Below are positions 12,452-48,703 of a stretch of DNA of 64,000 nucleotides, piece by piece (positions within the stretch are counted from its first letter, which is position 1; every line of letters starts with the position of its first letter). A model generated the notes under the pieces. That model was given only the letters and a program-made list of their open reading frames with translations, was not told the origin of the DNA and did not search any database. The position numbers and the translations under genes are program-made. This DNA is from Myxococcota bacterium (GTDB lineage: Bacteria; Myxococcota_A; UBA9160; UBA6930): positions 2,092,388 through 2,156,387 of the forward strand of contig OZ245002.1 in assembly GCA_965223415.1 (NCBI GenBank), read 5' to 3'.

Positions 12452-13405
12452 GTGCTCCAGATCCTACTCACCGGTGGAACGGGCTCCTTCGGCCACGCCT
12501 TCGCTCGGCGGATGCTCCGGGAGCGCGACGACTGCATGATCCGCATCTACAGTCGCGACGAGCTGAAGCAGGCCGAGATGCTCCGCCGCTTCGACGACGA
12601 CGAGCGTCTGCGCTTCCTCATCGGCGACGTGCGGGATCGGGTGCGCCTGCGGCGGGCAATGAGCGACGTCGACGTTGTCGTGCACGCTGCCGCCATGAAG
12701 CAGGTGCCGATCTGCGAGTACAACCCGGCCGAGGCGGTGAAGACCAACGTCATGGGCGGCATGAACGTCCTCGAATGCTGCCTGGACGCCGGTGTGCCGA
12801 AGGCGATCGCCCTCTCGACCGACAAGGCGGTGAACCCGGTCAACATCTACGGCGCCACGAAGCTGTGCATGGAGAAGCTCTTCATCCATGGCAACGCCTA
12901 CGCGGGCGGCAGCGATACCCGCTTCGCGGTGGTTCGCTACGGCAACGTGGTCGGGAGCCGGGGAAGCGTGATCCCGCTCTTCCTCCAGCAGGCGGCGGAC
13001 GGCGTCATGACCGTGACGGACCGCCGCATGACCCGTTTCTGGATCTCCCTGGAGCAGGCGGTGGAGCTGGTGCTGCTGGCGATGGAGGACATGCAGGGCG
13101 AGGAGACCTTCGTGCCCAAGATCCCCAGCATGCGCATCGTCGATCTGGCCAAGGCAGTCCGTTCCGACGCGATGATCAAGGAGATCGGCATCCGGCCCGG
13201 CGAGAAGATGCACGAGGTTCTGCTCACCGCCGACGAGGCACGGCACGCCCGGGATTTCGAGACCCACTTCGTGATCGGCGGCAATCCGAAGGGCGGCCGC
13301 TCGGTGCCGGAGGGCTTCGTCTACTCGAGCGACCAGAACTCGCTCTGGCTCACGGTCGAGAGGCTCTCGGAGCTGATCGAGAGCTGGAAGGTCGGGCGTG
13401 GGTGA
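12452..13405 (+). CDS. pseB: UDP-N-acetylglucosamine 4,6-dehydratase (inverting)
   Basis: 317 aa with TGGTGSFG Rossmann motif, YGATK catalytic motif and RYGNVxGSRGSVIP, typical of PseB/FlaA1/FlmA. Confidence 0.9.
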   Translation: MLQILLTGGTGSFGHAFARRMLRERDDCMIRIYSRDELKQAEMLRRFDDDERLRFLIGDVRDRVRLRRAMSDVDVVVHAAAMKQVPICEYNPAEAVKTNVMGGMNVLECCLDAGVPKAIALSTDKAVNPVNIYGATKLCMEKLFIHGNAYAGGSDTRFAVVRYGNVVGSRGSVIPLFLQQAADGVMTVTDRRMTRFWISLEQAVELVLLAMEDMQGEETFVPKIPSMRIVDLAKAVRSDAMIKEIGIRPGEKMHEVLLTADEARHARDFETHFVIGGNPKGGRSVPEGFVYSSDQNSLWLTVERLSELIESWKVGRG

Positions 13406-14591
13406 GGTCGGCGACCGTTCCCATCTTCCCTACACCCGGCACACGCTGGAGCCGGAGGATTCGCAGGCGCTGATCGATGCTCTCGAGAGCGGATGCATCA
13501 CCCAGGGACCGATCGTCCAGGACTTCGAGGCGCGGGTCGCCGCCATCGTGGGCGTGGGCCATGCAGTCGCCACGTCGAGCGGCACGACCGCCCTCGAGAC
13601 CGCGCTGGCGGCCCTGGGCGTGGGGCCCGGCGCGGAGGTCGTCGTCCCCACGCTCACCTTCGTGGCGACGGCCAACGCGGTGCGCGCGCGAGGCGCCACG
13701 CCGGTCTTCGCCGACGTGGATCCGCAGACCCTGAACCTCTCCGCGGAGACCCTCGCGCCTCACGTGAACGAGCGGACCGTGGGAGCGATCCCGGTGCACT
13801 TCGCCGGCCACCCCGCCGACGTCCCCGCGCTTCGGGAGGTGCTCGGGACCGAACGCTTCCTGCTCGAGGACGCCGCCCACGCCTTCGGGGCCGAGCTCGC
13901 CGATCGGCCGGCGGGATCACTCGGCGACGCGGCGTGCTTCTCCTTTCATCCGGCCAAGCTGGTCACGACGGCGGAAGGCGGGGCGGTCGCGACGAATTCG
14001 TCCTTCCTCGGCCGCCGCGCCCGGATGTTCCGCGAGCACGGGCTCGTCCGGGATCCGGCCCTCTTCGAGGGCCTCGACGTGCCGGAGGACCTGGCGGAGG
14101 ACGGGCTCGGCCCCTGGGTCTACGAGCAGCAGAGCTGCGGCTCGAACCATCGCATGAACGAGCTCCAGGCGGCGCTCGGGCGCAGCCAGCTCACGAGGAC
14201 CGGGCGCCTGCTCGAGCGGCGGCGCGCCCTGGCCGGCGCCTACGATGCGGCGCTCGCCGGCCTGGACGAGGTCGAGCCCCCCGCGGAGCGGGACGGCGCG
14301 CGTTCGGCCTGGCACCTCTACGTGATCCGGCTGCGCCCCGGCTCGATCGGGCGAGGCGCCCTCTACCGGCGCATGCGCGAAGCGAAGATCGGCGTGCAGG
14401 TCCACTACGTGCCCGTCCATCTCCAGCCCTACCATCGCCACGAGCTGGGCACGGCCTGGGGCGACTACCCGGTGGCCGAGGACGCCTACCTGCGGATGCT
14501 CTCGCTCCCCCTGTTCCCCGGCATGGGAGAGGACGACACCTACCGGGTCGTGGACGCCCTGCGGCAAGCGCTGGCCGGGAGCCCCCGGTGA
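13398..14591 (+). CDS. pseC: UDP-4-amino-4,6-dideoxy-N-acetyl-beta-L-altrosamine transaminase (DegT/DnrJ/EryC1 family)
   Basis: 397 aa with the PLP-lysine context FSFHPAKLVTTAEGG. Overlaps the pseB stop. Confidence 0.9.
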   Translation: MGEVGDRSHLPYTRHTLEPEDSQALIDALESGCITQGPIVQDFEARVAAIVGVGHAVATSSGTTALETALAALGVGPGAEVVVPTLTFVATANAVRARGATPVFADVDPQTLNLSAETLAPHVNERTVGAIPVHFAGHPADVPALREVLGTERFLLEDAAHAFGAELADRPAGSLGDAACFSFHPAKLVTTAEGGAVATNSSFLGRRARMFREHGLVRDPALFEGLDVPEDLAEDGLGPWVYEQQSCGSNHRMNELQAALGRSQLTRTGRLLERRRALAGAYDAALAGLDEVEPPAERDGARSAWHLYVIRLRPGSIGRGALYRRMREAKIGVQVHYVPVHLQPYHRHELGTAWGDYPVAEDAYLRMLSLPLFPGMGEDDTYRVVDALRQALAGSPR

Positions 14592-16498
14592 GCGCGCTGG
14601 CTCCGGAAGTCCACCGGCACGCGCTCCGGACGAACCTGGCCCGCCTGCAGGGCCGCCAGCCGGCCCTCGCCCAGGCGATCCTCGACGCCGATCCGGGCGG
14701 CGTGGAGGTGGTGGACGGAGCCAGGGGCATCCACACCGTGTCCGACCAGGGCACGCTGCTCGCCTCCGCCTACGACCCGGCGCGAGAGGGAGCGCGCCTG
14801 GCCGCGGACATGGCGGACGCTCCCACCGATCTGCTTGTCGCCGTGGGCTTCGGCCTCGGCCACCACCTCGAGGCCTTCCGCTCGCGCAATCCGTGTCCCG
14901 TCGTGGTCTACGAGCCGAAGCTCGCCCGGCTGCGGGCGGCGCTCTCGGCGCGGCCGGACCTCCGCCTGCTCGAAGAGGACGACGTCTACCTGACCGGCGA
15001 TGCCGACGAGCTCCGCAACCTGATCGCCGCGCGCTACACGCCGGGGCTCCGGATCAAGGTCTTTCCCCATCCCGCACTGATGCGGCTCTCGCCGGATGCG
15101 GTGCACGAGGCGATCGACCGGGTCTCCCGGGTCAAGGACTCGATCGATCTGGTCACGAACACGCGGATGACGATGATGGCCGATTGGGCACGGGGCACCA
15201 TCGCCAACGCCCGCCACCTGACCCACCGGCCGAGCATCACGCGCCTCGCCGGCGCGTTCCGCGGCGTGCCGGCGGTGATCTGCGCTGCGGGCCCGTCGCT
15301 CGATCGGCAGCTCCCCAAGCTCGCCGCCGCCCGGGATCGGGTGCTCGTCGTCGCCATCGGTCAGACGCTGCGGGCACTCCGCCGGGCCGGGATCGAGCCC
15401 GACCTCGTGCACGTGGTGGAGAGCCAGGACGTGGCCCACCAGCTCACCGAGGCCGGCGACGTGAGCCGGCTCCACCTCGTGCTGCCGCCCCAGGCCCACC
15501 CTTCCCTCTTCACGCTGCCCGTCCGCCAGCATTGGATCGCCTATCAATCGACGAACCCGTTCGGATGCTGGATCGGAGAGCAGCTCGGCGAGCGGGACTT
15601 CCTGCCCTCGGCAGGAACCGTGACCCAGTGCAGCCTGCACCTGGCCCGGGTGATGGGCTGCAACCCGGTCGCCGTGATCGGCCAGGATCTCGCCTTCACC
15701 GGGGGGCGCCTGTACGCGAGCGGGTCCGCCTACCACGACGTCGGCTTCCGCACTCTCGCCGACGGGCGCTACGAGTACACGAACCTGCGCGGCAAGCTCG
15801 AGGCCCTGGGACGCGACGATCCCGGCCAGGCGATGGGCGGCGAGCTGATCTGGGTGGAGGGCTGGGACGGGAATGCCGTCCCGACGAACCAGGCCTACGC
15901 GTCCTTCCTCGACCACTACCGGGACCTGAGTCCCTACTTCGCCCGCGAGGGCGTCAGCCTCGTGAACTGCACGGAAGGCGGCGCGCGGCTCCCGGGGCTG
16001 CTGCACCGGCCCTTCCAGGAGTTCCTGGACGAGCACGCGCGGACGCCCCACGGCGCGGGTGAGGTGCTCGCCCGGACGGCGGGCGCCTTCACGCCCGCTG
16101 CGCCGGGCCGCTTCGACCCCGGCTTCTCGAGGCTCCGGCGGGAGCTCCGCGAGCTCGGCCGCGAGTGCAGCCGCGGCCTCGAACGGGCGCGCAAGGCGCG
16201 CCGGGAGGTGGAGCGCGCCGCCGGAGAGGCCCGCCAGGTGGAGCTCCTACGGGGCGTCGCCCGGAGCCAGCGCAGGATCCATACCGTCGTTTCCCGCGTG
16301 ACGCTCCTCGACGCCCTCGTCCAGCGCGAGCTCCAGGGCGTCCAGAGTGACGTCTCGCGGGCCTCCTCCGCCCATCCGACGCCGCTCCAGGTGGCGGGTG
16401 AGGCGGAACGCTTGATGGAGGCGGCCCAGCAGGCGGCCCGTCGCGGGGTCGAGCTCGTGGACACCCTCGAGCGGGAGATCGCGGACTCGCTGCCTTAG
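14588..16498 (+). CDS. maf: motility accessory factor (Maf, DUF115/MptE-like) putative flagellin nonulosonic-acid glycosyltransferase
   Basis: GTGA overlap with pseC. 636 aa with VICAAGPSLD and a central MptE-like fold signature, plus a C-terminal coiled-coil region as in Campylobacter/Aeromonas Maf proteins. Confidence 0.8.
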   Translation: MSALAPEVHRHALRTNLARLQGRQPALAQAILDADPGGVEVVDGARGIHTVSDQGTLLASAYDPAREGARLAADMADAPTDLLVAVGFGLGHHLEAFRSRNPCPVVVYEPKLARLRAALSARPDLRLLEEDDVYLTGDADELRNLIAARYTPGLRIKVFPHPALMRLSPDAVHEAIDRVSRVKDSIDLVTNTRMTMMADWARGTIANARHLTHRPSITRLAGAFRGVPAVICAAGPSLDRQLPKLAAARDRVLVVAIGQTLRALRRAGIEPDLVHVVESQDVAHQLTEAGDVSRLHLVLPPQAHPSLFTLPVRQHWIAYQSTNPFGCWIGEQLGERDFLPSAGTVTQCSLHLARVMGCNPVAVIGQDLAFTGGRLYASGSAYHDVGFRTLADGRYEYTNLRGKLEALGRDDPGQAMGGELIWVEGWDGNAVPTNQAYASFLDHYRDLSPYFAREGVSLVNCTEGGARLPGLLHRPFQEFLDEHARTPHGAGEVLARTAGAFTPAAPGRFDPGFSRLRRELRELGRECSRGLERARKARREVERAAGEARQVELLRGVARSQRRIHTVVSRVTLLDALVQRELQGVQSDVSRASSAHPTPLQVAGEAERLMEAAQQAARRGVELVDTLEREIADSLP

Positions 16499-16510
16499 CC
16501 AGGTTCGAGG

Positions 16511-17989
16511 TCAGGCCCCGCCGTCACCCGGCGGAGGCTCGAAGACCTGTTGGGAGTAGCTGAAGCTGGTGTCGCCCTGATTGCGCTTCGGGGTGTGCTG
16601 CTTGTAGCCGCCGGTGCGAATCAGCTCGTCGTCGGCCAGACCGAGCTCGAGGCTCCGGTTCAGGCGCGAGCATTCCTCCTGGATCGCGTGCAGGATCGCC
16701 TCGTCCTCGAGCGCGGTCATGTTGAGGCAGATGTCCTGGCGCTCGGTAATCGAATCGAGGTAGGCGTCCTCGTCGGGGATGAACCCGTTCCGGCGGGCGT
16801 AGTCGTACATCTCGGTGTCGGGAAGCGGAAGGAGGAAGCCCACGCTCGGGTAGACGCCGTTGCGCTCGCAGAGGTCGAAGGTCTCGCGGATCGTGTCGCG
16901 AGTCTCGATCGGATAGCCGAGCACGACGCTGGTGTTGGAGGTGATCCCGACCTCGCGCAGCAGGCGCACCTGCTCCTCGAAGTAGTCCACGCGAACCCGC
17001 TTGTTCATCATGGCGAGGATCTCGGCGTTGCCGGACTCGAGGGAGTAGCCGAGGGTGAGGCAGCCGGAATCGCGGAACTTCTGCGCGACTTCGAGGCGCC
17101 GCTCGTAGGGGATCTGCCGGTTTCCGAACAGGTCGGTCCGCACGGCGGCGCTCCATGCGAAGCGCAGCCCGGAACCCAGGATCGCGTCCACCAGCTTCTC
17201 GGCTTGGGCGAGCTTGGTAAAGGTGAGGTCGTCCCAGAAGTTGATGTAGTTCGCGCCGTAGCCCTCGATGTTGCGGCGCACTTCCTGCAGCACGCCCTCG
17301 GCGCACCGGTGCCGATAGGGGTCGTGCTTGAAGACGATGTGGCAGAACGTGCACTTGTAGACGCAGCCGCGGGCGGTCGCGACGGGCATCGTGCGCCAGG
17401 TCGCATCGCCCTGGGTCGTGCCCCAGGCGGAGGGCGCGTCCGTCTCCGCGAAGTAGCGATCGACGTCGAAGAGGTCCCAATCGGGCATCGGCAGCTGGTC
17501 GATCGGGGCGGCCTTGCGGCGGGGCGTGTGGAGCGGCTCGCCCCGGGCGTCTCGAAGGACGATGCCCTCCACCTCGTGGAGGGCCGTGCCGCGCCGGAGT
17601 GCGTCGAGCACGGCCACGGTCGTGATCTCGCCCTCGCCGACCACCACCACATCGGCCTGCGACCGGGCCAGGAAGAGGTCCGGGACCGAGCCCGCCACCG
17701 AGTTCCCCACGACGATCTTCGCTCCGGGAGCAGCGCGGCGCGCCATCTCCGTGAAGCCCTTCATCCACTTGTAGTGGGTGACGATCGATCCGGTGAGGAT
17801 GACCTCCCAACGATTCCGGCCCAGGAAGGCCTCGACGGCGTCGTCGTCCTGGTCGTGGACCCCGACGTCGAGAAGCTCGACCTCGTAGCCGGCTTCGCGC
17901 ACCGCCGTCATCACGTAGGCGAGACCGACCGGCAGGTAACGGGTCGCGTGGCCCGGACGCAGGTTGGGATTGACGAACAGCAGGCGCAT
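16511..17989 (-). CDS. B12-binding domain radical SAM protein (class B)
   Basis: 492 aa. N-terminal cobalamin-binding Rossmann domain (LLFVNP, VVVVGEGE) and CxxxCxxC cluster ARGCVYKCTFCH. Confidence 0.9.
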   Translation of the reverse strand: MRLLFVNPNLRPGHATRYLPVGLAYVMTAVREAGYEVELLDVGVHDQDDDAVEAFLGRNRWEVILTGSIVTHYKWMKGFTEMARRAAPGAKIVVGNSVAGSVPDLFLARSQADVVVVGEGEITTVAVLDALRRGTALHEVEGIVLRDARGEPLHTPRRKAAPIDQLPMPDWDLFDVDRYFAETDAPSAWGTTQGDATWRTMPVATARGCVYKCTFCHIVFKHDPYRHRCAEGVLQEVRRNIEGYGANYINFWDDLTFTKLAQAEKLVDAILGSGLRFAWSAAVRTDLFGNRQIPYERRLEVAQKFRDSGCLTLGYSLESGNAEILAMMNKRVRVDYFEEQVRLLREVGITSNTSVVLGYPIETRDTIRETFDLCERNGVYPSVGFLLPLPDTEMYDYARRNGFIPDEDAYLDSITERQDICLNMTALEDEAILHAIQEECSRLNRSLELGLADDELIRTGGYKQHTPKRNQGDTSFSYSQQVFEPPPGDGGA

Positions 17990-18010
17990 GAAAGCTCCCT
18001 CGGCGGGCCG

Positions 18011-18748
18011 CTACCAGCGGTAGGGCGTCTGGGGCACGTGCTCGTTCCAGACGAGCCAACCCGGGTGCTCGGTGAGCCAGCCCTCGACCCGGTCGAAGCC
18101 GAAGGCTTCCTCGCCCGGATGCAGGGCGTCGTAGAGGGCGGAGACCAGCCGGTAGTCGTCGGCGGTGTCCACGGCGAGCCGCCACGGGCGCCGATCCGGT
18201 GTGCGATCGAGATACGCGGCCGGGCCCGCCTGTCCCCGCCAGAGCCAGGGCGTCACGTGCTCGCGCTCGTAGGGGTCCCGCGCCTCGCGGTGCGCCCGGA
18301 GCAGCGCCGCCGCGGTGAAGGCCTCCGCGTCGAGACCGATCGGGTAGCCGCTCTCGAGGGCCGTCGACGCGAACGCCACGTCGAGGCCCTGGCGCAGGGC
18401 GAGCACCGACGCACCGACCGCCGGGTCGTAGAGCGGGCAGTCCGACGTGACGCGAAGCACGACGGAGGCGCCGGTCGCATCCACCGCCAGGGCCGTTCGC
18501 GCGAGCACGTCCTCCTCCGGTCCGCGCACGACGTGCACGCCCCTGTGCAGAGAAGCGACGTCGACCACCGGCTGCTGAGCCGCGCCCTCGGGAAGGGCGA
18601 CGCAGATTTCGTCGACGCCCGGCGTCCGCCCGACCCGCTCGATCACCCGCGAGAGGAGCGGGGCTCCGGCGAGGGGCAGGCACACCTTGCCCGGCAGCCG
18701 TGTCGAGGTGCCCCGCGCCTGGATCACCGCCACGACGGGCCCGCTCAC
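18011..18748 (-). CDS. SpsF/FlmC-like cytidylyltransferase (probable CMP-pseudaminic acid synthetase role)
   Basis: AVIQARGTSTRLPGKV motif of the COG1861 cytidylyltransferase family. The GTG at 18746..18748 overlaps the pseI stop (GTGA). An alternative ATG lies at 18772. Confidence 0.7.
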   Translation of the reverse strand: MSGPVVAVIQARGTSTRLPGKVCLPLAGAPLLSRVIERVGRTPGVDEICVALPEGAAQQPVVDVASLHRGVHVVRGPEEDVLARTALAVDATGASVVLRVTSDCPLYDPAVGASVLALRQGLDVAFASTALESGYPIGLDAEAFTAAALLRAHREARDPYEREHVTPWLWRGQAGPAAYLDRTPDRRPWRLAVDTADDYRLVSALYDALHPGEEAFGFDRVEGWLTEHPGWLVWNEHVPQTPYRW

Positions 18749-19800
18749 GACGCCTCTCCCAGCTGTTCCCACTGGAGGGGCTCGCCCCGCTTCAGATCGC
18801 GGAGCGCCGGGCGACCGAGCACCGCGCCCAGGTGACGCGGCTCGAGGCCGAGGGCGGGACGGATCGAGCGCACCGCGTCACGGGTGAGCCGCTCTCCGGC
18901 TGCCACGTCCCGCACGACGTAGAGCGAGCGCCGACACCGGCGGCTGCTCGCCTCGCAGGCAGCCGGTGCCGAACGTCCGTCGCCCAGGCCTTCCCAGGCG
19001 GCCCGCACGTCGCGCACCATCGCCGCGAACTCGTCGGGCTCCAGGCTGAAGCCCGCGTCGGGGCCGCCGTCGGCTCGCGCCAGGGTGAGGTGCTTCTCGA
19101 TCAGGCTCGCGCCGAGGGCGACCGCGGCGATCGGAGCGGCGGGCCCGAGGCTGTGGTCCGACAGCCCGGTGACGACGCCGAACTCCGCCGCGAGGGTCGC
19201 CATGCGGCGCAGGTTCATCTCGCCGGGCGGGGTCGGGTAGCCGCTCACGCAGTGCAGCAGCGCCAGGTCGGTGCCGCCGGCGGCCCGGGCCGCGGCGAGG
19301 GCGCGTCGGATCTCGTCGGGCGTGGCCATGCCCGTGGAGAGGACGACCGGGCGTCCGGTCGCCGCGGCCCGCGCGATCAGCTCGAGATCGCCCAGCTCGA
19401 AGGACGCGATCTTGTAGGCTGGTGCGTCCAGCCGCTCGAGGAAGTCGACGGTCGCCGGGTCGAAGGGGGAGCTGAAGACAGCCATTCCCAGCTCGCGGCC
19501 GCGGGCGAAGAGCGCCGGGTGCCACGCGGCGGGCGTCTGGGCCTCGGCGTAGAGCTCGAACAGGTTGCGACCGCGCCAGGGGCCGTCCTCGATGTGGAAC
19601 CCCGGCCCGCTCTCGTCGAGGGTCATGCTCTCGGGCGTGTAGGTCTGGAGCTTCACGGCGTCGGCGCCGGCCCGGTGGGCGGCTTCGACGATGGCGAGGG
19701 CGCGGTCCCGATCGCCCAGGTGGTTCGCCGAGAGCTCCGCCACCACGTAGGGCGGCGCGCCGTCCCCAATCCAGCGTCTGTCCAGGGCGAATCCGCTCAC
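18745..19800 (-). CDS. pseI: pseudaminic acid synthase (NeuB family)
   Basis: 351 aa with YVVAELSANH, KLQTY and C-terminal SAF domain motifs. The GTG start overlaps the upstream stop. Confidence 0.9.
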   Translation of the reverse strand: MSGFALDRRWIGDGAPPYVVAELSANHLGDRDRALAIVEAAHRAGADAVKLQTYTPESMTLDESGPGFHIEDGPWRGRNLFELYAEAQTPAAWHPALFARGRELGMAVFSSPFDPATVDFLERLDAPAYKIASFELGDLELIARAAATGRPVVLSTGMATPDEIRRALAAARAAGGTDLALLHCVSGYPTPPGEMNLRRMATLAAEFGVVTGLSDHSLGPAAPIAAVALGASLIEKHLTLARADGGPDAGFSLEPDEFAAMVRDVRAAWEGLGDGRSAPAACEASSRRCRRSLYVVRDVAAGERLTRDAVRSIRPALGLEPRHLGAVLGRPALRDLKRGEPLQWEQLGEAS

Positions 19801-20534
19801 GGGCTCACTCCCAGGGTGCGCGGCTCGCGCCGGCCCCGTCGCAGGATCTCCCGGGCCTCGCGGCCGGTATTGAGGAGCAGGTCGACGGCGCTCGCCTGGG
19901 AGACGAAGCCGGCGCTGCACCGGGCACTGCACTGGGGATAGGGCGGTGGCTCGAAGTGCTGGATCGAGACGCGGATGCCGCGGCTGCGGAACGGCTCCTG
20001 GTCCTCGAGCAGGTAGGGCTCGGCTCCGGGGGCGGAGAGGTAGTGGGTGGCGCCCAGCTCCTCGCACAGGCCGGCCAGTCGCTCGCCCCGCCGCCCGCCG
20101 GCCTCGAGCCGCGAAGAGCGGTGGATCGGCACGTCGATGCCGAGCTCGTGGAACAGCCAGCCGATCAGCGCCAGGTTCAGCTCCGCGAGCCCCGTCCACG
20201 GCGCGCCGGAGGCGTAGGTGGCCTCGAGCCGCGACGCGAAAGGCTCGAGGGCGGGGGCGCGGGCGTAGGCGTGGCGGAGGGTGCGCAGGTGTTTGCGCCA
20301 GAAGTCCGCGTGGTCGATCGCGACGTCGCGGATGGTCTGTCCGCGCAGCCCCTTTACCCGCACCGGAACCGTCAGCCAATGCAGCGCGCCGCCGACGACG
20401 ATGCGATTGCGCTGCTGCCAGCTGCGGTGGGCGAAGCTGGCATCGTCGAGGAAGACGAAGCGATCGACCTGGTCCGCCAGGTCGAGGTAGCCGGGCCACG
20501 GCAGGTAGGTGGGCTGCATGATCGCGACCCGCAT
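19797..20534 (-). CDS. WbqC family protein
   Basis: MRVAIMQPTYLPWPGYLDL N-terminus is characteristic of the WbqC-like family. 245 aa. Confidence 0.75.
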   Translation of the reverse strand: MRVAIMQPTYLPWPGYLDLADQVDRFVFLDDASFAHRSWQQRNRIVVGGALHWLTVPVRVKGLRGQTIRDVAIDHADFWRKHLRTLRHAYARAPALEPFASRLEATYASGAPWTGLAELNLALIGWLFHELGIDVPIHRSSRLEAGGRRGERLAGLCEELGATHYLSAPGAEPYLLEDQEPFRSRGIRVSIQHFEPPPYPQCSARCSAGFVSQASAVDLLLNTGREAREILRRGRREPRTLGVSP

Positions 20535-21484
20535 CAGGTCGCCGCTCCCGCGAGCCGCTCCCACACCGCGCCCGCGACCCGGAAGCAGCCGCGGCCGTCG
20601 AAGGGGCGTGCGGCGGGCGGCCCCTGGGCGAGGGCCTCCTCCACCCGTGCCCAGGCCGCTTCCGGCTCCGCCTTCGGCTCCAGCCCGAGCAGTGCGCCCT
20701 CGCTCTCGAGCCAGGCGATCTCCTCCACCAGATCGGGCTCGTTGGGGAAGGCGACGCAGGGAACGCCGACGGTGAGCGCCTCCGGGACGATCATGCCTCC
20801 GGTGACCAGCGCGACCGAAGCCCGGCACAGGCGGCGGGCGAGCTCTTCCGCTTCCAGATCGACCCGCAGCTCGTGGCCGCCCGCTTCGCAGGTGCTGCGG
20901 AGCCGTTCCGGCTCCGCGAAGGACCCGCCGACGACCACGCATAGGTGCAGCGTCCCGGATGGCTCGGCGAGGAGCCCGAGCAGCCAGCGGGCCGCGTTCG
21001 CCCCGGAGCCCGCGACGACGATGACCTCGGGCACCTCGGCCGGCTCGCGGAGGCCCCGGGCCTCGGCGAAGGCCGGACGCAGGAGCGCGTAGCGCGGGCC
21101 GCACAGGCGGAGCGCCTCCTCCGGCAGCTTCGGGTAGGCATGGCGCGTCCCGGGACCGCTTCCGTTCACCACGACGTCGGCGCAGGCGGCGTCGCCGCCG
21201 TCGTCGACGACGACCCGGAGCCCGGAGGTCGCCACCCGGGCCTCGCGCGGATCCGGGTGGTCCACGACGAGCAGGTCGGCCCTCGCTGCCAGCGCCTCGT
21301 AGCGCGCGGGCGGCTCGATGCGGGCCCCGGGAAACAGCGCGGCGAGGTCGTCCGCACCCCGGCCCACGACGATCGGGGGCGCCGTCCCGGGCAGGGCGTC
21401 CAGCAGCGCCGCCGTGCGCACCGCGTGGCCGCGGCCCACCGAGGCGTCGGCATCGAGGCGTGCAACCGCGCAGGGACCGCTCAC
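20534..21484 (-). CDS. pseG: PseG-like UDP-2,4-diacetamido-2,4,6-trideoxy-beta-L-altropyranose hydrolase (GT28 C-terminal fold)
   Basis: About 316 aa with the GxGH motif (GRGHAVR) and a C-terminal GT-B half (TGGMIVPEAL). GTG chosen just downstream of the upstream stop. Confidence 0.65.
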   Translation of the reverse strand: MSGPCAVARLDADASVGRGHAVRTAALLDALPGTAPPIVVGRGADDLAALFPGARIEPPARYEALAARADLLVVDHPDPREARVATSGLRVVVDDGGDAACADVVVNGSGPGTRHAYPKLPEEALRLCGPRYALLRPAFAEARGLREPAEVPEVIVVAGSGANAARWLLGLLAEPSGTLHLCVVVGGSFAEPERLRSTCEAGGHELRVDLEAEELARRLCRASVALVTGGMIVPEALTVGVPCVAFPNEPDLVEEIAWLESEGALLGLEPKAEPEAAWARVEEALAQGPPAARPFDGRGCFRVAGAVWERLAGAAT

Positions 21485-21485
21485 G

Positions 21486-22187
21486 TCAGCGAACCGCCGA
21501 GACCAGCCAGTCGTCGTCCAGGAAGCGGCCGCCCTCACGGGTGACGCTTCGGCGATCCACCTGGACGTGGGTGAAGGGTCGGAACAGCTCGCGCAGGCTC
21601 GCCTCGTCGAGGAAGGTCATCTCCAGGCCCTCCTCGGCGGCCGCCGGCGTCCCGGCCAGTCCCTCGAGGCGGACGCGGTGATCGCCGATCGCCGTGCCGA
21701 AGACGAGGCGGGAATCCGCGTCGCTTCGCGTGCCGCACAGGAAGCGGCCGCCCGGCGCCAGCGCGCCGGCGACGCGCGAGATGGACGCGGCGATGCGCTC
21801 GAGGGGCGCGTAGCAATAGACCGACGCACACAGCACGGCGTCGAAGAAGCCTTCCGGGAACTCGAACGCGTCGATCGCGGCCTGCTGCGTGCCCAGCTCG
21901 AGGCCCTCTCCCGCGGCGCGGCGCAGGGCCTCGTCCAGACCCGCTCGCGACAGGTCGACGGCGAAGGTCTCGAAGCCCTCGCGGGCGAGGAACACCGCGT
22001 GGCGGCCCGCCCCGCAGCCGAGGTCGAGGGCGCGCGTGCTCCCGCGGCGCAGGCCGGGGAAGCTCGTGAGGGCCCAACGCACCACGGCCTCGTCCGGGTA
22101 GCGCGGGCAGTAGCGCGCTTCGCCGTGCAGCGCGTCCCAGCGCTCCCGCAAGCCCGCCTGCCCGACGTCGTCCAGCGCGGTCAGCAC
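21486..22187 (-). CDS. class I SAM-dependent methyltransferase
   Basis: Motif I LDLGCGAGRH and post-I FAVDLS. The GTG start is preceded by a GGAGG-containing RBS. Confidence 0.8.
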   Translation of the reverse strand: MLTALDDVGQAGLRERWDALHGEARYCPRYPDEAVVRWALTSFPGLRRGSTRALDLGCGAGRHAVFLAREGFETFAVDLSRAGLDEALRRAAGEGLELGTQQAAIDAFEFPEGFFDAVLCASVYCYAPLERIAASISRVAGALAPGGRFLCGTRSDADSRLVFGTAIGDHRVRLEGLAGTPAAAEEGLEMTFLDEASLRELFRPFTHVQVDRRSVTREGGRFLDDDWLVSAVR

Positions 22188-22204
22188 GCCCCCTCCTCGT
22201 TTCA

Positions 22205-22228
22205 GATCGAAACGCGGCGGTTTCGATC
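22205..22228. promoter_or_regulatory. palindrome GATCGAAAC-N6-GTTTCGATC in the divergent intergenic region
   Basis: Perfect 9-bp inverted repeat with a 6-nt spacer. It contains the GAAACGCGG core seen upstream of the other sigma54 promoters. Confidence 0.4.
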
Positions 22229-22290
22229 GGGAACCCGAGCCCCCCTCTCGCCCGCGCAGAAACGAGCGGAAGGCAGCGTCGACACGAGAG

Positions 22291-22306
22291 AGCAAGACCC
22301 GTGCCC
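22291..22306 (-). promoter_or_regulatory. candidate sigma54 promoter for the methyltransferase-pseG-wbqC-pseI operon
   Basis: The minus strand reads GGGCAC-gggtc-TTGCT, about 100 nt upstream of the GTG at 22187. Confidence 0.5.
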
Positions 22307-22322
22307 TGGCGCGGCGATTGCA
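22307..22322 (+). promoter_or_regulatory. candidate sigma54 promoter for the 22359 gene (and probably motAB)
   Basis: TGGCGC-ggcga-TTGCA, 37 nt upstream of the ATG at 22359. It abuts the minus-strand promoter directly. Confidence 0.55.
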
Positions 22323-22358
22323 TCGACCCGTAGGCGCGCGGGTGAAGAGGAGGAGACC

Positions 22359-47737: not shown

Positions 47738-47878
47738 GCCAGGAGCGTCCGGGCCTCGTGTGAGCGTGCTCTCGCGGTGCCCCCCCATCCGGGACGCTCG
47801 AGTGAGTGCCTCGGAAGCCAGAAGAGGGCTCACCAAGGATCGGTGAGTCAGGACCGTTCACGGAGGAAACAGAATCCA

Positions 47879-48703
47879 ATGGGTCTTCGAGTCAACAACA
47901 ACATCGCTTCGCTCAACGCGCAGCGAAACCTCGCCACCACCACGAACAACCTGCAGCGTTCGCTGGAGCGGCTGTCCTCGGGTCTGCGGATCACTCGCGC
48001 GTCCGACGATGCGGCCGGTCTGGCGATCTCCGAGCGGTTCCGCGCCGAGGTGCGGAGTCTCCAGCAGGCGCAGCGGAACGCCAACGACGGCATTTCGCTG
48101 CTGCAGATCGCGGAAGGCGCCCTCAACGAGACGAGCGGCATCCTCACGCGTCTGCGCGAGCTCGCCATCCAGTCGGCGAACGGCACCCTCGGGACCGCCG
48201 AGCGCACCACACTGGACAACGAGTTCAACGACTTGGTGACGGAGATCGGGCGGATCGCCCAGGTGACGGAGTTCAACGGCACCAAGCTGTTGGACGGCAC
48301 GGCGCCGAGCGTCACCTTCCAGGTGGGATCGAACAACACGGCCAACGACCAGATCACGGTCACTGGCGTGGATGCCACTGCCACCGGAATCGGCATCAGC
48401 GCGGCCGGTATCGATACGGTTGCCAACGCCCAGGCGGCGCTGTCGCTGATCGACTCGGCCATCGGAACCGTCGCGTCCCTGCGCGCCGGCTTCGGTACCG
48501 CCCAGAACCGCCTCGAGTCCACGATCCGATCGATCGCGGTCTCCGTGGAGAACACCACGGCGGCCGAGTCCCGGATCCGCGACGTCGATGTGGCCTCCGA
48601 GACCGCCATCCTGACGCGGAACCAGGTTCTGCAGCAGGCCGGCATCTCGGTGCTCGCCCAGGCGAACGTGTCGACGCAGAACGCGTTGGCCCTGCTCCAG
48701 TAG
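47879..48703 (+). CDS. fliC: flagellin
   Basis: 274 aa with MGLRVNNNIASLNAQRNL, SSGLRITRASDDAAGLAISE and a C-terminal ILTRNQVLQQAGISVLAQANVSTQNALALLQ. Short variable domain. Confidence 0.95.
   Translation: MGLRVNNNIASLNAQRNLATTTNNLQRSLERLSSGLRITRASDDAAGLAISERFRAEVRSLQQAQRNANDGISLLQIAEGALNETSGILTRLRELAIQSANGTLGTAERTTLDNEFNDLVTEIGRIAQVTEFNGTKLLDGTAPSVTFQVGSNNTANDQITVTGVDATATGIGISAAGIDTVANAQAALSLIDSAIGTVASLRAGFGTAQNRLESTIRSIAVSVENTTAAESRIRDVDVASETAILTRNQVLQQAGISVLAQANVSTQNALALLQ

What the first reader, a model, noticed from the sequence alone, without database searches (positions are those of the whole stretch)
16511..17989. Cobalamin-dependent radical SAM enzyme terminating the Pse operon
The 492-aa protein has an N-terminal B12-binding domain and the CxxxCxxC cluster ARGCVYKCTFCH. 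This is the architecture of class B radical SAM methyltransferases, which act on unactivated carbons. Its position as the last gene of the pseG-pseI-cytidylyltransferase operon, ending 12 nt from the convergent maf stop, suggests it modifies the nonulosonic acid or its acyl substituent. That chemistry is not part of any described Pse or Leg pathway that I know of.
Basis: inference. Interest (0 to 1): 0.6.

Follow-up and report, generated by a model that had tools for sequence, protein, structure and literature searches.

The report
B12 radical enzyme for sialic-acid-like sugars
A vitamin-B12-type radical SAM enzyme of an unnamed, widespread family sits in the gene cluster for the sialic-acid-like sugar that is probably attached to this bacterium's flagellin, and its relatives sit beside such sugar genes in many phyla, so it probably adds an undescribed modification to these sugars.

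Summary
Window 16511-17989 on the minus strand encodes a 492-aa protein. It has a B12-binding domain, a radical SAM domain and a CxxxCxxC motif (C209/C213/C216). It is the last gene of a sigma54-type operon: methyltransferase, PseG-like, WbqC, PseI, cytidylyltransferase, rSAM. Its stop lies 12 nt from the stop of a convergent Maf gene, inside a flagellar region.

The protein matches no named equivalog. Its predicted fold is that of class B radical SAM enzymes (TsrM, OxsB, AprD4, CysS, TokK).

I collected 99 orthologous loci (47-79% identity), which reduce to 71 dereplicated groups. Of the 46 groups with at least 4 kb of flank, 38 carry at least one core nonulosonic-acid (NulO) gene and 31 carry at least two. 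NulO contexts occur in all four main clades of the tree. Both PseI-type and NeuB/Leg-type synthases are present. The neighbouring transferases are either Maf or capsule-type. One derived Myxococcota-like subclade has no NulO neighbours.

The family is therefore a NulO-pathway tailoring enzyme and is not specific to flagella. Most likely it C-methylates the sugar or its N-acetyl group, perhaps on the CMP-activated form. That chemistry is inferred, and non-methylating radical chemistry is not excluded.

No paper in the searched library links radical SAM enzymes to Pse or Leg pathways. First readers of this scan noted the same cassette on two other genomes.

The parts
16511..17989 (-). B12-binding radical SAM protein, 492 aa (P0002); the finding itself
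   Evidence: ORF and translation; Pfam domains; orthologues at 47-79% identity
17609..17935 (-). B12-binding (Rossmann) domain, residues 19-127, with the invariant GEGE motif at residues 118-121
   Evidence: PF02310, 64 bits; invariant columns of alignment A1
16868..17377 (-). Radical SAM core, residues 205-374. The CxxxCxxC motif (C209, C213, C216) is encoded at 17342-17365
   Evidence: PF04055, 63.5 bits; the three cysteines are invariant in 27 sequences
18011..18772 (-). Cytidylyltransferase (CTP_transf_3); presumed CMP-NulO synthetase, only weakly PseF-like
   Evidence: PF02348, 75.6 bits; PseF TIGR03584 only 20 bits
18745..19800 (-). Pseudaminic acid synthase PseI
   Evidence: TIGR03586, 447 bits, cut-off 340
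19797..20564 (-). WbqC-family protein of unknown function. The model resembles BshC and class I aminoacyl-tRNA synthetase catalytic domains
   Evidence: PF08889, 206 bits; AF2 pLDDT 87; VIA-align Z 13.6 to BshC
20534..21484 (-). PseG-like UDP-sugar hydrolase (weak match)
   Evidence: TIGR03590, 64 bits, cut-off 154
21486..22187 (-). Class I SAM methyltransferase, first gene of the operon. The likely start is GTG at 22187, behind a GAGGAGG ribosome-binding site
   Evidence: Methyltransf_25/11; sequence
22290..22305 (-). Sigma54-type promoter-like element GGGCAC-N5-TTGCT, about 100 nt upstream of the methyltransferase start
   Evidence: read from the sequence; function not tested
12452..13405 (+). 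PseB (inverting UDP-GlcNAc 4,6-dehydratase)
   Evidence: TIGR03589, 446 bits, cut-off 408
13398..14591 (+). PseC-like aminotransferase
   Evidence: TIGR03588, 372 bits, cut-off 424; best match
14588..16498 (+). Maf-type (MptE-like) putative flagellin NulO transferase, convergent with the rSAM gene
   Evidence: PF01973, 109 bits; PseD domain, 51 bits
47843..48703 (+). Flagellin (286 aa), the presumed acceptor of the glycan
   Evidence: PF00669 in the own genome; NCBIfam flagellin models

Best explanation
The gene encodes a member of an unnamed, well conserved orthologous family of class B (cobalamin-type) radical SAM enzymes. The role of this family is to tailor 5,7-diamino nonulosonic acids (the pseudaminic/legionaminic acid type). 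In this genome it belongs to the sigma54-driven operon that makes a non-canonical pseudaminic acid, with no PseH. That sugar is presumably the one the neighbouring Maf puts on flagellin.

The most likely mechanism is as follows. The [4Fe-4S] cluster cleaves SAM to a 5'-deoxyadenosyl radical. The radical abstracts a hydrogen from an unactivated sp3 carbon of the sugar. Methylcobalamin then delivers a methyl group, and a second SAM re-methylates the cofactor. The family occurs with both PseI-type and NeuB/Leg-type synthases, so the target should be a feature these sugars share: the N-acetyl methyl, C3, or the C8/C9 tail. The gene often lies next to the cytidylyltransferase and the NulO transferases, so the substrate may be the CMP-activated sugar, as with Fom3 and CMP-linked hydroxyethylphosphonate.

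Shown here: the gene, its domains, its fold and its NulO linkage. Inferred: cobalamin use, methyl transfer, the site of modification and the stage in the pathway.
For: Gene and domains. The CxxxCxxC cysteines and a GEGE motif are invariant in 27 family members. The AF2 model (pLDDT 82) matches TsrM, OxsB, MgmA, AprD4, CysS and TokK at Foldseek E 1e-15 to 5e-21.

The operon is tight, has a sigma54-like promoter, and lies among flagellar genes.

The same cassette with a convergent Maf gene is found in L001 and L002. PseI-rSAM-Maf(-flagellin) arrangements occur in L009, L012, L018 and L033, from Pseudomonadota and Thermodesulfobacteriota.

Tally over 71 dereplicated groups, counting those with at least 4 kb of flank: 38 of 46 have at least one core NulO gene, 31 have at least two, 20 have a synthase, and 21 have a transferase-like gene (Maf, Capsule_synth or a TIGR04396-like protein). 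NulO context is found in all four main clades of the tree.

The other neighbours are typical NulO tailoring genes: the Pse-associated methylase TIGR03587, the WbuX amidotransferase, Asn-synthase-like, PIG-L, DUF4910, formyltransferase and ATP-grasp proteins. The synthases in these loci are about half PseI-type and half NeuB-type.

The genome can use B12. It has one cobalamin riboswitch and eight ORFs with a B12-binding domain above the cut-off, although CobS and CbiC were not found.
Against: There is no biochemical evidence. The best named profile matches are HpnJ and BchE, which are not methyltransferases, and all matches are far below their cut-offs. The best TM-score is to AprD4, a diol dehydratase that does not use cobalamin.

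Eight of 46 well-flanked groups show no NulO gene nearby. These include a coherent subclade that is sister to the window's own clade.

Immediate neighbours vary, so no fixed partner or pathway stage can be read from gene order.

No organism that carries the gene has a published glycan structure that I could find. I know of no C-methylated nonulosonic acid (own knowledge).
Confidence: 0.5

Rival explanations
1. The enzyme tailors the nonulosonic acid pathway, but by non-methylating radical chemistry. Candidates are deoxygenation or dehydration, epimerisation, or a carbon-skeleton rearrangement of the sugar or of a UDP-linked precursor, as done by AprD4, OxsB or HpnJ.
For: The best structural superposition is with AprD4, a 1,2-diol dehydratase acting on an aminosugar (TM 0.70/0.75, rmsd 4.6). 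The top NCBIfam matches are HpnJ (110 bits) and BchE (104 bits), neither of which is a methylase. OxsB is among the top hits by both sequence and fold. The operon already carries a class I methyltransferase.
Against: Most characterised class B enzymes are methyltransferases (own knowledge). P-methyltransferase models score almost as high as HpnJ and BchE (about 100 bits). The B12-binding domain scores well above the Pfam cut-off, and the genome uses B12.
Confidence: 0.25
2. In this lineage the enzyme methylates the unusual N-acyl or aminoacyl group that the WbqC protein attaches in place of the PseH acetyl group, and not the sugar skeleton.
For: No PseH above the cut-off is found in this genome or in five other rSAM-bearing genomes. 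The WbqC model resembles BshC and MshC, which ligate an amino acid to an aminosugar. WbqC lies directly upstream of the rSAM gene in several marine loci: L074, L083, L090 and L101.
Against: WbqC is seen in only 8 of 71 groups, so the family as a whole cannot depend on it. L018 has a PseH-like GNAT inside its cluster. The ligase role of WbqC is itself only a structural lead.
Confidence: 0.1
3. The gene has nothing to do with the sugar. It is a hitch-hiker in variable surface-glycan islands and acts on an unrelated small molecule or lipid.
For: Eight of 46 well-flanked groups lack NulO neighbours. Their neighbours include GH65, HAD, an ammonium transporter and DUF1259. The family is patchy, with an orthologue in 3 of 401 genomes of the phylum. 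Sister families are fused to YcaO or GT9 domains, which shows diverse roles nearby in sequence space.
Against: A NulO cluster covers well under 1% of a genome, yet 83% of well-flanked groups from several phyla have NulO genes beside the rSAM gene. Even in the exceptional subclade the next gene is a distant Capsule_synth-like protein (BLASTP 6e-6). All five genomes checked have a NeuB-family gene elsewhere, though this is weak because 9 of 14 control genomes also do.
Confidence: 0.07
4. The enzyme modifies a protein, either flagellin or the Maf transferase, in the way that Mmp10, MgmA or PoyC methylate amino-acid residues.
For: MgmA, a protein glutamine C-methylase, is among the fold matches. 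The gene is convergent with Maf and lies in a flagellar region.
Against: Most orthologue loci have no Maf or flagellin gene but do have capsule-type transferases (Maf or flagellin in 9 of 71 groups). The shared element across loci is the sugar pathway.
Confidence: 0.03

Closest known systems
Fom3 (fosfomycin) and GenK/GenD1 (gentamicin): class B radical SAM C-methyltransferases
   Same: They share the two-domain architecture. They methylate unactivated sp3 carbons of small polar metabolites. Fom3 needs a CMP-linked substrate made by a pathway cytidylyltransferase (own knowledge; the HEP-CMP complex of Fom1 appears as PDB 5X3D). Here too a cytidylyltransferase gene directly precedes the rSAM gene.
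   Different: No specific sequence relationship was found. None of these families appears among the significant NCBIfam hits. The substrate class here would be nonulosonic acids, which has no precedent.
Solved class B enzymes TsrM, OxsB, CysS, TokK, MgmA, and the B12-independent AprD4
   Same: They share the fold (Foldseek E 5e-21 to 3e-15, TM 0.60-0.70).
   Different: Identity is only 16-18%. By sequence profile the best match is CysS at 58 bits. Their substrates (tryptophan, dATP/dAMP, polyketide and carbapenem intermediates, a protein glutamine, paromamine) are unrelated to this context.
HpnJ (hopanoid cyclitol ether formation) and BchE (anaerobic Mg-protoporphyrin cyclase)
   Same: They are the best named profile matches (110 and 104 bits). 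HpnJ also acts on an aminosugar-derived moiety (own knowledge).
   Different: The scores are far below the equivalog cut-offs (578 and 481). The genomic context is entirely different.
Known tailoring enzymes of Pse/Leg pathways (PseA/WbuX amidotransferases, the Pse-associated methylase TIGR03587, Ptm enzymes, Cj1295/DUF4910)
   Same: They occupy the same genomic niche: accessory genes inside NulO clusters that diversify the sugar. Several co-occur with this rSAM gene.
   Different: All of these use polar chemistry (amidation, acylation, O/N-methylation). None is a radical SAM enzyme.

Membership tests
Class B (cobalamin-dependent) radical SAM enzymes | N-terminal Rossmann-type B12-binding domain | tested here: met
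   PF02310, 64 bits against a cut-off of 32, residues 19-127. The model superposes on TsrM, OxsB, CysS and TokK.
Class B (cobalamin-dependent) radical SAM enzymes | CxxxCxxC [4Fe-4S]/SAM motif in a partial TIM barrel | tested here: met
   C209, C213 and C216 are invariant in 27 sequences. PF04055, 63.5 bits.
Class B (cobalamin-dependent) radical SAM enzymes | The protein actually binds cobalamin | not testable with these tools
   AprD4 has the same fold without cobalamin. The genome has a cobalamin riboswitch and other B12-domain proteins, so the cofactor is plausibly available.
Class B radical SAM methyltransferases | Methyl transfer from SAM via methylcobalamin to the substrate | not testable with these tools
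   Inference only. Both methylases and non-methylases are among the nearest relatives.
Named equivalogs (HpnJ, BchE, PhpK/Sden_1168 P-methyltransferases, ApyD, HpnR, BzaD, KedN5, TsrM-type) | Score above the curated NCBIfam cut-off | tested here: not met
   The best score is 110 bits against a cut-off of 578 (HpnJ). All 25 listed hits are far below their cut-offs.
Canonical pseudaminic acid pathway (PseB, C, H, G, I, F) as the context of the gene | PseB and PseI equivalogs present | tested here: met
   PseB 446 bits (cut-off 408); PseI 447 bits (cut-off 340).
Canonical pseudaminic acid pathway (PseB, C, H, G, I, F) as the context of the gene | PseC, PseG and PseF equivalogs present | tested here: inconclusive
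   PseC scores 372 bits against 424 and is the best match. PseG scores 64 against 154, and PseF 20 against 206, though with a clear CTP_transf_3 domain.
Canonical pseudaminic acid pathway (PseB, C, H, G, I, F) as the context of the gene | PseH N-acetyltransferase present | tested here: not met
   The best TIGR03585 match in the whole genome is 26 bits against a cut-off of 93, and it is not in the cluster.
Maf-type flagellin nonulosonic acid transferases (the neighbouring gene) | MptE-like (DUF115) domain in a protein of about 600 aa beside Pse genes and flagellar genes | tested here: met
   PF01973, 109 bits, in the 636-aa protein. The flagellar genes and flagellin are in the same window.

The most novel reading that the evidence does not exclude
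This orthologous family installs a carbon-carbon bond (a C-methyl branch or chain extension) on CMP-activated 5,7-diamino nonulosonic acids. That would create a class of sialic-acid-like sugars not yet seen by glycan chemists. These sugars would be widespread on marine bacterial surfaces and on some flagella, and this would be the first radical SAM step in any nonulosonic acid pathway.
Probability: 0.4. Interest if true: 0.75.

Novelty: new variant of a known kind. Interest (0 to 1): 0.6.

Why it matters
Nonulosonic acids (sialic, legionaminic and pseudaminic acids) decorate flagella, capsules and lipopolysaccharides. They shape motility, phage and immune recognition, and cell-surface diversity. 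All described tailoring of these sugars uses polar chemistry.

A conserved B12-type radical SAM family embedded in these clusters predicts a modification on an unactivated carbon. The family is found across Myxococcota-like, Pseudomonadota, Thermodesulfobacteriota and Sericytochromatia-like genomes and in many marine metagenome contigs. Current glycan databases and mass-spectrometry searches would not anticipate such a sugar.

For radical SAM enzymology it offers a new, soluble, chemically accessible substrate class. For genome annotation it gives a testable name to hundreds of proteins now labelled 'B12-binding radical SAM protein', 'YgiQ' or 'BchE-like cyclase'. It also ties surface-sugar diversity to vitamin B12 supply. 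This genome lacks CobS and CbiC, so it would depend on imported corrinoid.

Tried and rejected
I rebuilt gene contexts from raw loci with my own ORF calling, tblastn and clustering. A first greedy longest-ORF caller failed on high-GC loci and was replaced by a caller based on third-codon-position GC (GC3). L001 was still miscalled and was rescued by tblastn.
- A presence/absence co-occurrence test inside the own phylum was not feasible. Only 3 of 401 genomes carry an orthologue.
- NeuB elsewhere in the five genomes whose rSAM locus lacks NulO genes was positive in all five. The family also rings in 9 of 14 control genomes, so this carries little weight.
- The protein atlas returned only generic 'B12-binding radical SAM' clusters.
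- The viral contig scan found no relative.
- No RNA holder was listed for the operon, so I did not lay any reads.
- Foldseek against the PDB found nothing for WbqC at E <= 0.001. VIA-align then gave the BshC/class I synthetase lead.
- Fusion partners of sister families (tandem rSAM, YcaO, GT9) gave no Rosetta-stone clue for this family.
- Literature searches joining radical SAM with pseudaminic, legionaminic, nonulosonic or flagellin glycosylation returned only incidental co-mentions. One example is non-B12 radical SAM genes in a Campylobacter fetus phase-variable region (PMC6321876). Another is a heme-utilisation radical SAM enzyme, HutW, in Plesiomonas (PMC6309461).
- I considered whether the rSAM enzyme could replace PseH and rejected it on chemical grounds. 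An N-acyl transfer is not radical SAM chemistry, and L018 keeps a PseH-like GNAT.
- I did not try to assign the lower-axial or cobalamin-contact residues from the model, because these are not conserved among solved class B enzymes.
Full report
**1. The observation**

The ORF at 16511-17989 is real, but it lies on the minus strand. Its translation is a 492-aa protein starting MRLLFVNPNL and containing ARGCVYKCTFCH. The plus-strand reading of the same interval is open only because the genome is 71% GC. Codon-position GC (0.67/0.44/0.91) marks the minus frame as coding.

Pfam finds a B12-binding domain (residues 19-127, E 1.4e-17) and a Radical_SAM domain (205-374, E 3.6e-17). A good ribosome-binding site (AGGGAG) precedes the ATG. 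The start is 21 nt after the stop of the upstream cytidylyltransferase gene. Exactly 12 nt separate the rSAM stop from the stop of the convergent Maf gene.

**2. The surroundings**

I called genes by codon bias and scanned them against protein families. This gives two convergent units.

- The plus-strand unit is PseB (12452-13405, above the equivalog cut-off), a PseC-like aminotransferase (13398-14591) and Maf (14588-16498).
- The minus-strand unit is a class I methyltransferase (21486-22187), a PseG-like gene (20534-21484), WbqC (19797-20564), PseI (18745-19800, above the cut-off), a cytidylyltransferase (18011-18772) and the rSAM gene.

In the minus-strand unit, adjacent reading frames overlap or are separated by at most 21 nt. 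A GGGCAC-N5-TTGCT element lies about 100 nt upstream of the methyltransferase start.

The cluster is embedded in flagellar genes: motAB, a sigma54 activator, fliL, fliM/N, fliOP, fliR, flhB and flhA. The single flagellin gene is at 47843-48703. No PseH is detectable anywhere in the 5.83 Mb, 97% complete genome. The 1001-aa ORF 13493-16498 that could be taken for a giant Maf is two genes in different frames.

**3. What kind of protein it is**

No curated NCBIfam model claims it. The best matches are HpnJ (110 bits, cut-off 578), BchE (104), two P-methyltransferase families (about 100) and ApyD (88). Against PDB sequences, a family profile reaches only CysS (58 bits), OxsB (51) and TokK (34).

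The AlphaFold model built on a 27-sequence alignment has pLDDT 82 and pTM 0.84. It matches TsrM, OxsB, MgmA, AprD4, CysS and TokK with Foldseek E-values of 5e-21 to 3e-15. The highest TM-score is to AprD4. It is therefore a class B-fold radical SAM protein from an uncharacterised subfamily. The fold does not say whether it methylates.

The family is sharply conserved, with 58% mean column identity. The invariant positions include the three cluster cysteines and a GEGE motif at 118-121.

In a library clustered at 50% identity, the family's own representative scores 496 bits. Sister families follow at 35-42% identity (300-375 bits), and below them the scores decline without a gap. Some sister proteins are fused to a second rSAM unit, to YcaO or to a GT9 glycosyltransferase. 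Function therefore cannot be transferred from them.

**4.

A protein search returned more than 120 clusters at 52-79% identity. The sources name them only generically. I fetched 22 loci from species-representative genomes and 80 from metagenomes.

Ninety-nine of these carry an orthologue (at least 45% identity), and they collapse to 71 groups at 85% identity. I annotated the flanks in two ways. One was tblastn with the window's Pse proteins and with proteins from L009, L014, L018 and L004. The other was clustering of all called ORFs, with Pfam and NCBIfam annotation of the cluster representatives.

Result for groups with at least 4 kb of flank:

| Feature in the flank | Groups (of 46) |
|---|---|
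| At least one core NulO gene (PseB-, PseC-, cytidylyltransferase-, synthase- or PseG-like) | 38 |
| At least two core NulO genes | 31 |
| A NulO synthase | 20 |
| Maf or flagellin | 7 |
| Capsule-type transferase-like gene (PF05159, or distant TIGR04396-like) | 14 |

Three loci of unrelated B12-rSAM genes (L020-L022) show no such gene. A NulO cluster occupies well under 1% of a genome, so this is far beyond chance.

Clear flagellar examples are:

- L009: PseB, PseC, PseF, two methyltransferases, PseG, a phosphoesterase, an ATP-grasp protein, PseI, rSAM, Maf and a 1023-aa flagellin.
- L012: PseI-rSAM-Maf.
- L018: flagellin ... PseB-rSAM-PseC-PseF ... PseI, Maf.
- L001 and L002, which repeat the window's six-gene cassette with the convergent Maf.

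Of 21 synthases in these loci, 12 match the PseI model and 11 match the NeuB model at E <= 1e-90. The family therefore serves both Pse-type and Neu/Leg-type pathways.

Other recurrent neighbours are known NulO accessory families:

- the Pse-associated methylase TIGR03587
- the WbuX amidotransferase
- Asn-synthase-like proteins
- PIG-L deacetylase
- DUF4910
- Antibiotic_NAT
- formyltransferase
- ATP-grasp proteins

.

**5. Phylogeny and exceptions**

A maximum-likelihood tree of 95 sequences shows NulO contexts in all four main clades. The window groups with L001 and L002 (support 99), then with L023. All four are Maf-linked.

The sister of this group is a supported subclade (L003, L004, L005, L024, L026; also L015, which was left out of the tree because its rSAM reading frame is split) from Myxococcota-like MAGs. 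It lacks NulO neighbours. There the rSAM gene is followed by a 402-aa protein without a Pfam match and an AsmA-like protein, or it sits among unrelated genes (GH65, HAD).

The 402-aa protein is a distant relative of the Capsule_synth proteins that neighbour the rSAM gene in marine loci (BLASTP E 6e-6 over the HP-motif region). It also hits the 'surface carbohydrate biosynthesis' model weakly. All five genomes with non-NulO loci have a NeuB-family gene elsewhere, but that family is common. I read this subclade as a derived relocation. A change of function cannot be excluded.

The family is patchy. Only 3 of 401 genomes sampled from the window's phylum have it.

**6. Mechanism**

The shared element across all contexts is the diamino-nonulosonate pathway. 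It is not flagellin, not WbqC (8 of 71 groups) and not any one acyl-modifying enzyme. This argues that the substrate is the sugar itself or its standard N-acetyl groups.

The gene is frequently an immediate neighbour of the cytidylyltransferase or of the transferase that consumes the CMP-sugar. This suggests, but does not prove, a late step on the CMP-activated sugar. The precedent is Fom3, which needs a CMP-linked substrate (own knowledge).

I therefore commit to C-methylation by the usual class B mechanism, at about 50%. The steps are a 5'-deoxyadenosyl radical, hydrogen abstraction, and methyl transfer from methylcobalamin.

The main rival, at about 25%, is non-methylating radical chemistry on the same pathway. 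It is kept alive by the AprD4, OxsB, HpnJ and BchE similarities.

The genome lacks CobS and CbiC. It has a cobalamin riboswitch and eight ORFs with a B12-binding domain above the cut-off, so it appears to use imported corrinoid.

**7. A side result that bears on the pathway**

The WbqC protein sits where PseH would be expected. It has no Foldseek match in the PDB. With VIA-align its confident model (pLDDT 87) superposes best on BshC (Z 13.6, 230 residues) and on class I lysyl- and glutamyl-tRNA synthetase catalytic domains. MshC also appears, at Z 7.2. BshC and MshC act in bacillithiol and mycothiol biosynthesis, where cysteine is joined to a glucosamine-containing acceptor (own knowledge; for BshC the ligase activity is putative). 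A plausible reading is that WbqC attaches an acyl or aminoacyl group to the 4-amino group of the UDP-sugar instead of acetylation by PseH. This is a lead and was not tested further.

**8. Novelty**

Full-text searches joining radical SAM with pseudaminic, legionaminic, nonulosonic or flagellin glycosylation found no paper describing such a step.

First readers of this scan noted the same cassette on two other genomes. A different B12-rSAM gene was followed up in another NulO cluster. I also saw second, distantly related B12-rSAM genes in several of my loci.

The enzyme class and the idea of NulO tailoring are both known. A radical SAM, B12-type step in these pathways is not. I rate it a new variant of a known kind, with interest 0.6.

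Noticed in passing
window 19797-20564 (-): The WbqC-family protein (PF08889, function unknown) has a confident AF2 model. The model has no Foldseek PDB match but superposes on BshC (VIA Z 13.6, 230 residues) and on class I Lys/Glu-tRNA synthetase catalytic domains. MshC also matches, at Z 7.2. This suggests an ATP-dependent amide ligase that could stand in for the missing PseH.
   Followed up: partly
whole genome (G000); window 12452-22187: No PseH (TIGR03585) above the cut-off is found anywhere in this 97% complete genome or in five other genomes that carry the rSAM orthologue. L018 has a 47-bit PseH-like GNAT inside its cluster.
   Followed up: partly
whole genome (G000); L115:1501-1729: The genome has no CobS and no CbiC match. 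It does have one cobalamin riboswitch (32.9 bits) and eight ORFs with a B12-binding domain over the cut-off. It looks like a B12 user that depends on imported corrinoid. I did not identify the gene downstream of the riboswitch.
   Followed up: partly
L004:3408-6109, L005:1265-5879, L015:3309-7814, L024: In a derived subclade from Myxococcota-like MAGs the rSAM gene has left the NulO cluster. It is followed by a 402-aa protein with no Pfam match and an AsmA-like protein. The 402-aa protein is distantly similar to Capsule_synth proteins (BLASTP 6e-6).
   Followed up: partly
L032:12131-12919, L040:36-770, L053:14624-15406, L068:2397-3506, L090:3858-4586: A second, distantly related B12/radical SAM gene (22-28% identity to the query) lies in the same NulO loci. 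More than one radical SAM family may therefore tailor these sugars.
   Followed up: no
L075:3759-4211 (-) and 12 other loci: A protein of about 150 aa with no Pfam or NCBIfam match recurs within a few hundred bases of the rSAM gene in marine loci (10 dereplicated groups). In L091 and L100 it is part of a protein of about 320 aa.
   Followed up: no
window 13493-16498 (+): The 1001-aa ORF listed mechanically is an artefact of high GC content. Codon bias splits it into PseC (13398-14591) and Maf (14588-16498), which overlap by 4 nt in different frames.
   Followed up: yes
window 22187-22358: The methyltransferase probably starts at GTG 22187 behind a GAGGAGG ribosome-binding site. A sigma54-type GGGCAC-N5-TTGCT element lies at about 22290-22305, in the divergent intergenic region shared with the 22359 gene that precedes motAB. 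This ties the sugar operon to the flagellar regulon.
   Followed up: partly
P0140, P0195, P0123 (sister families): Relatives at 31-40% identity are fused to a YcaO domain, to a GT9 heptosyltransferase domain or to a second B12-rSAM unit.
   Followed up: no
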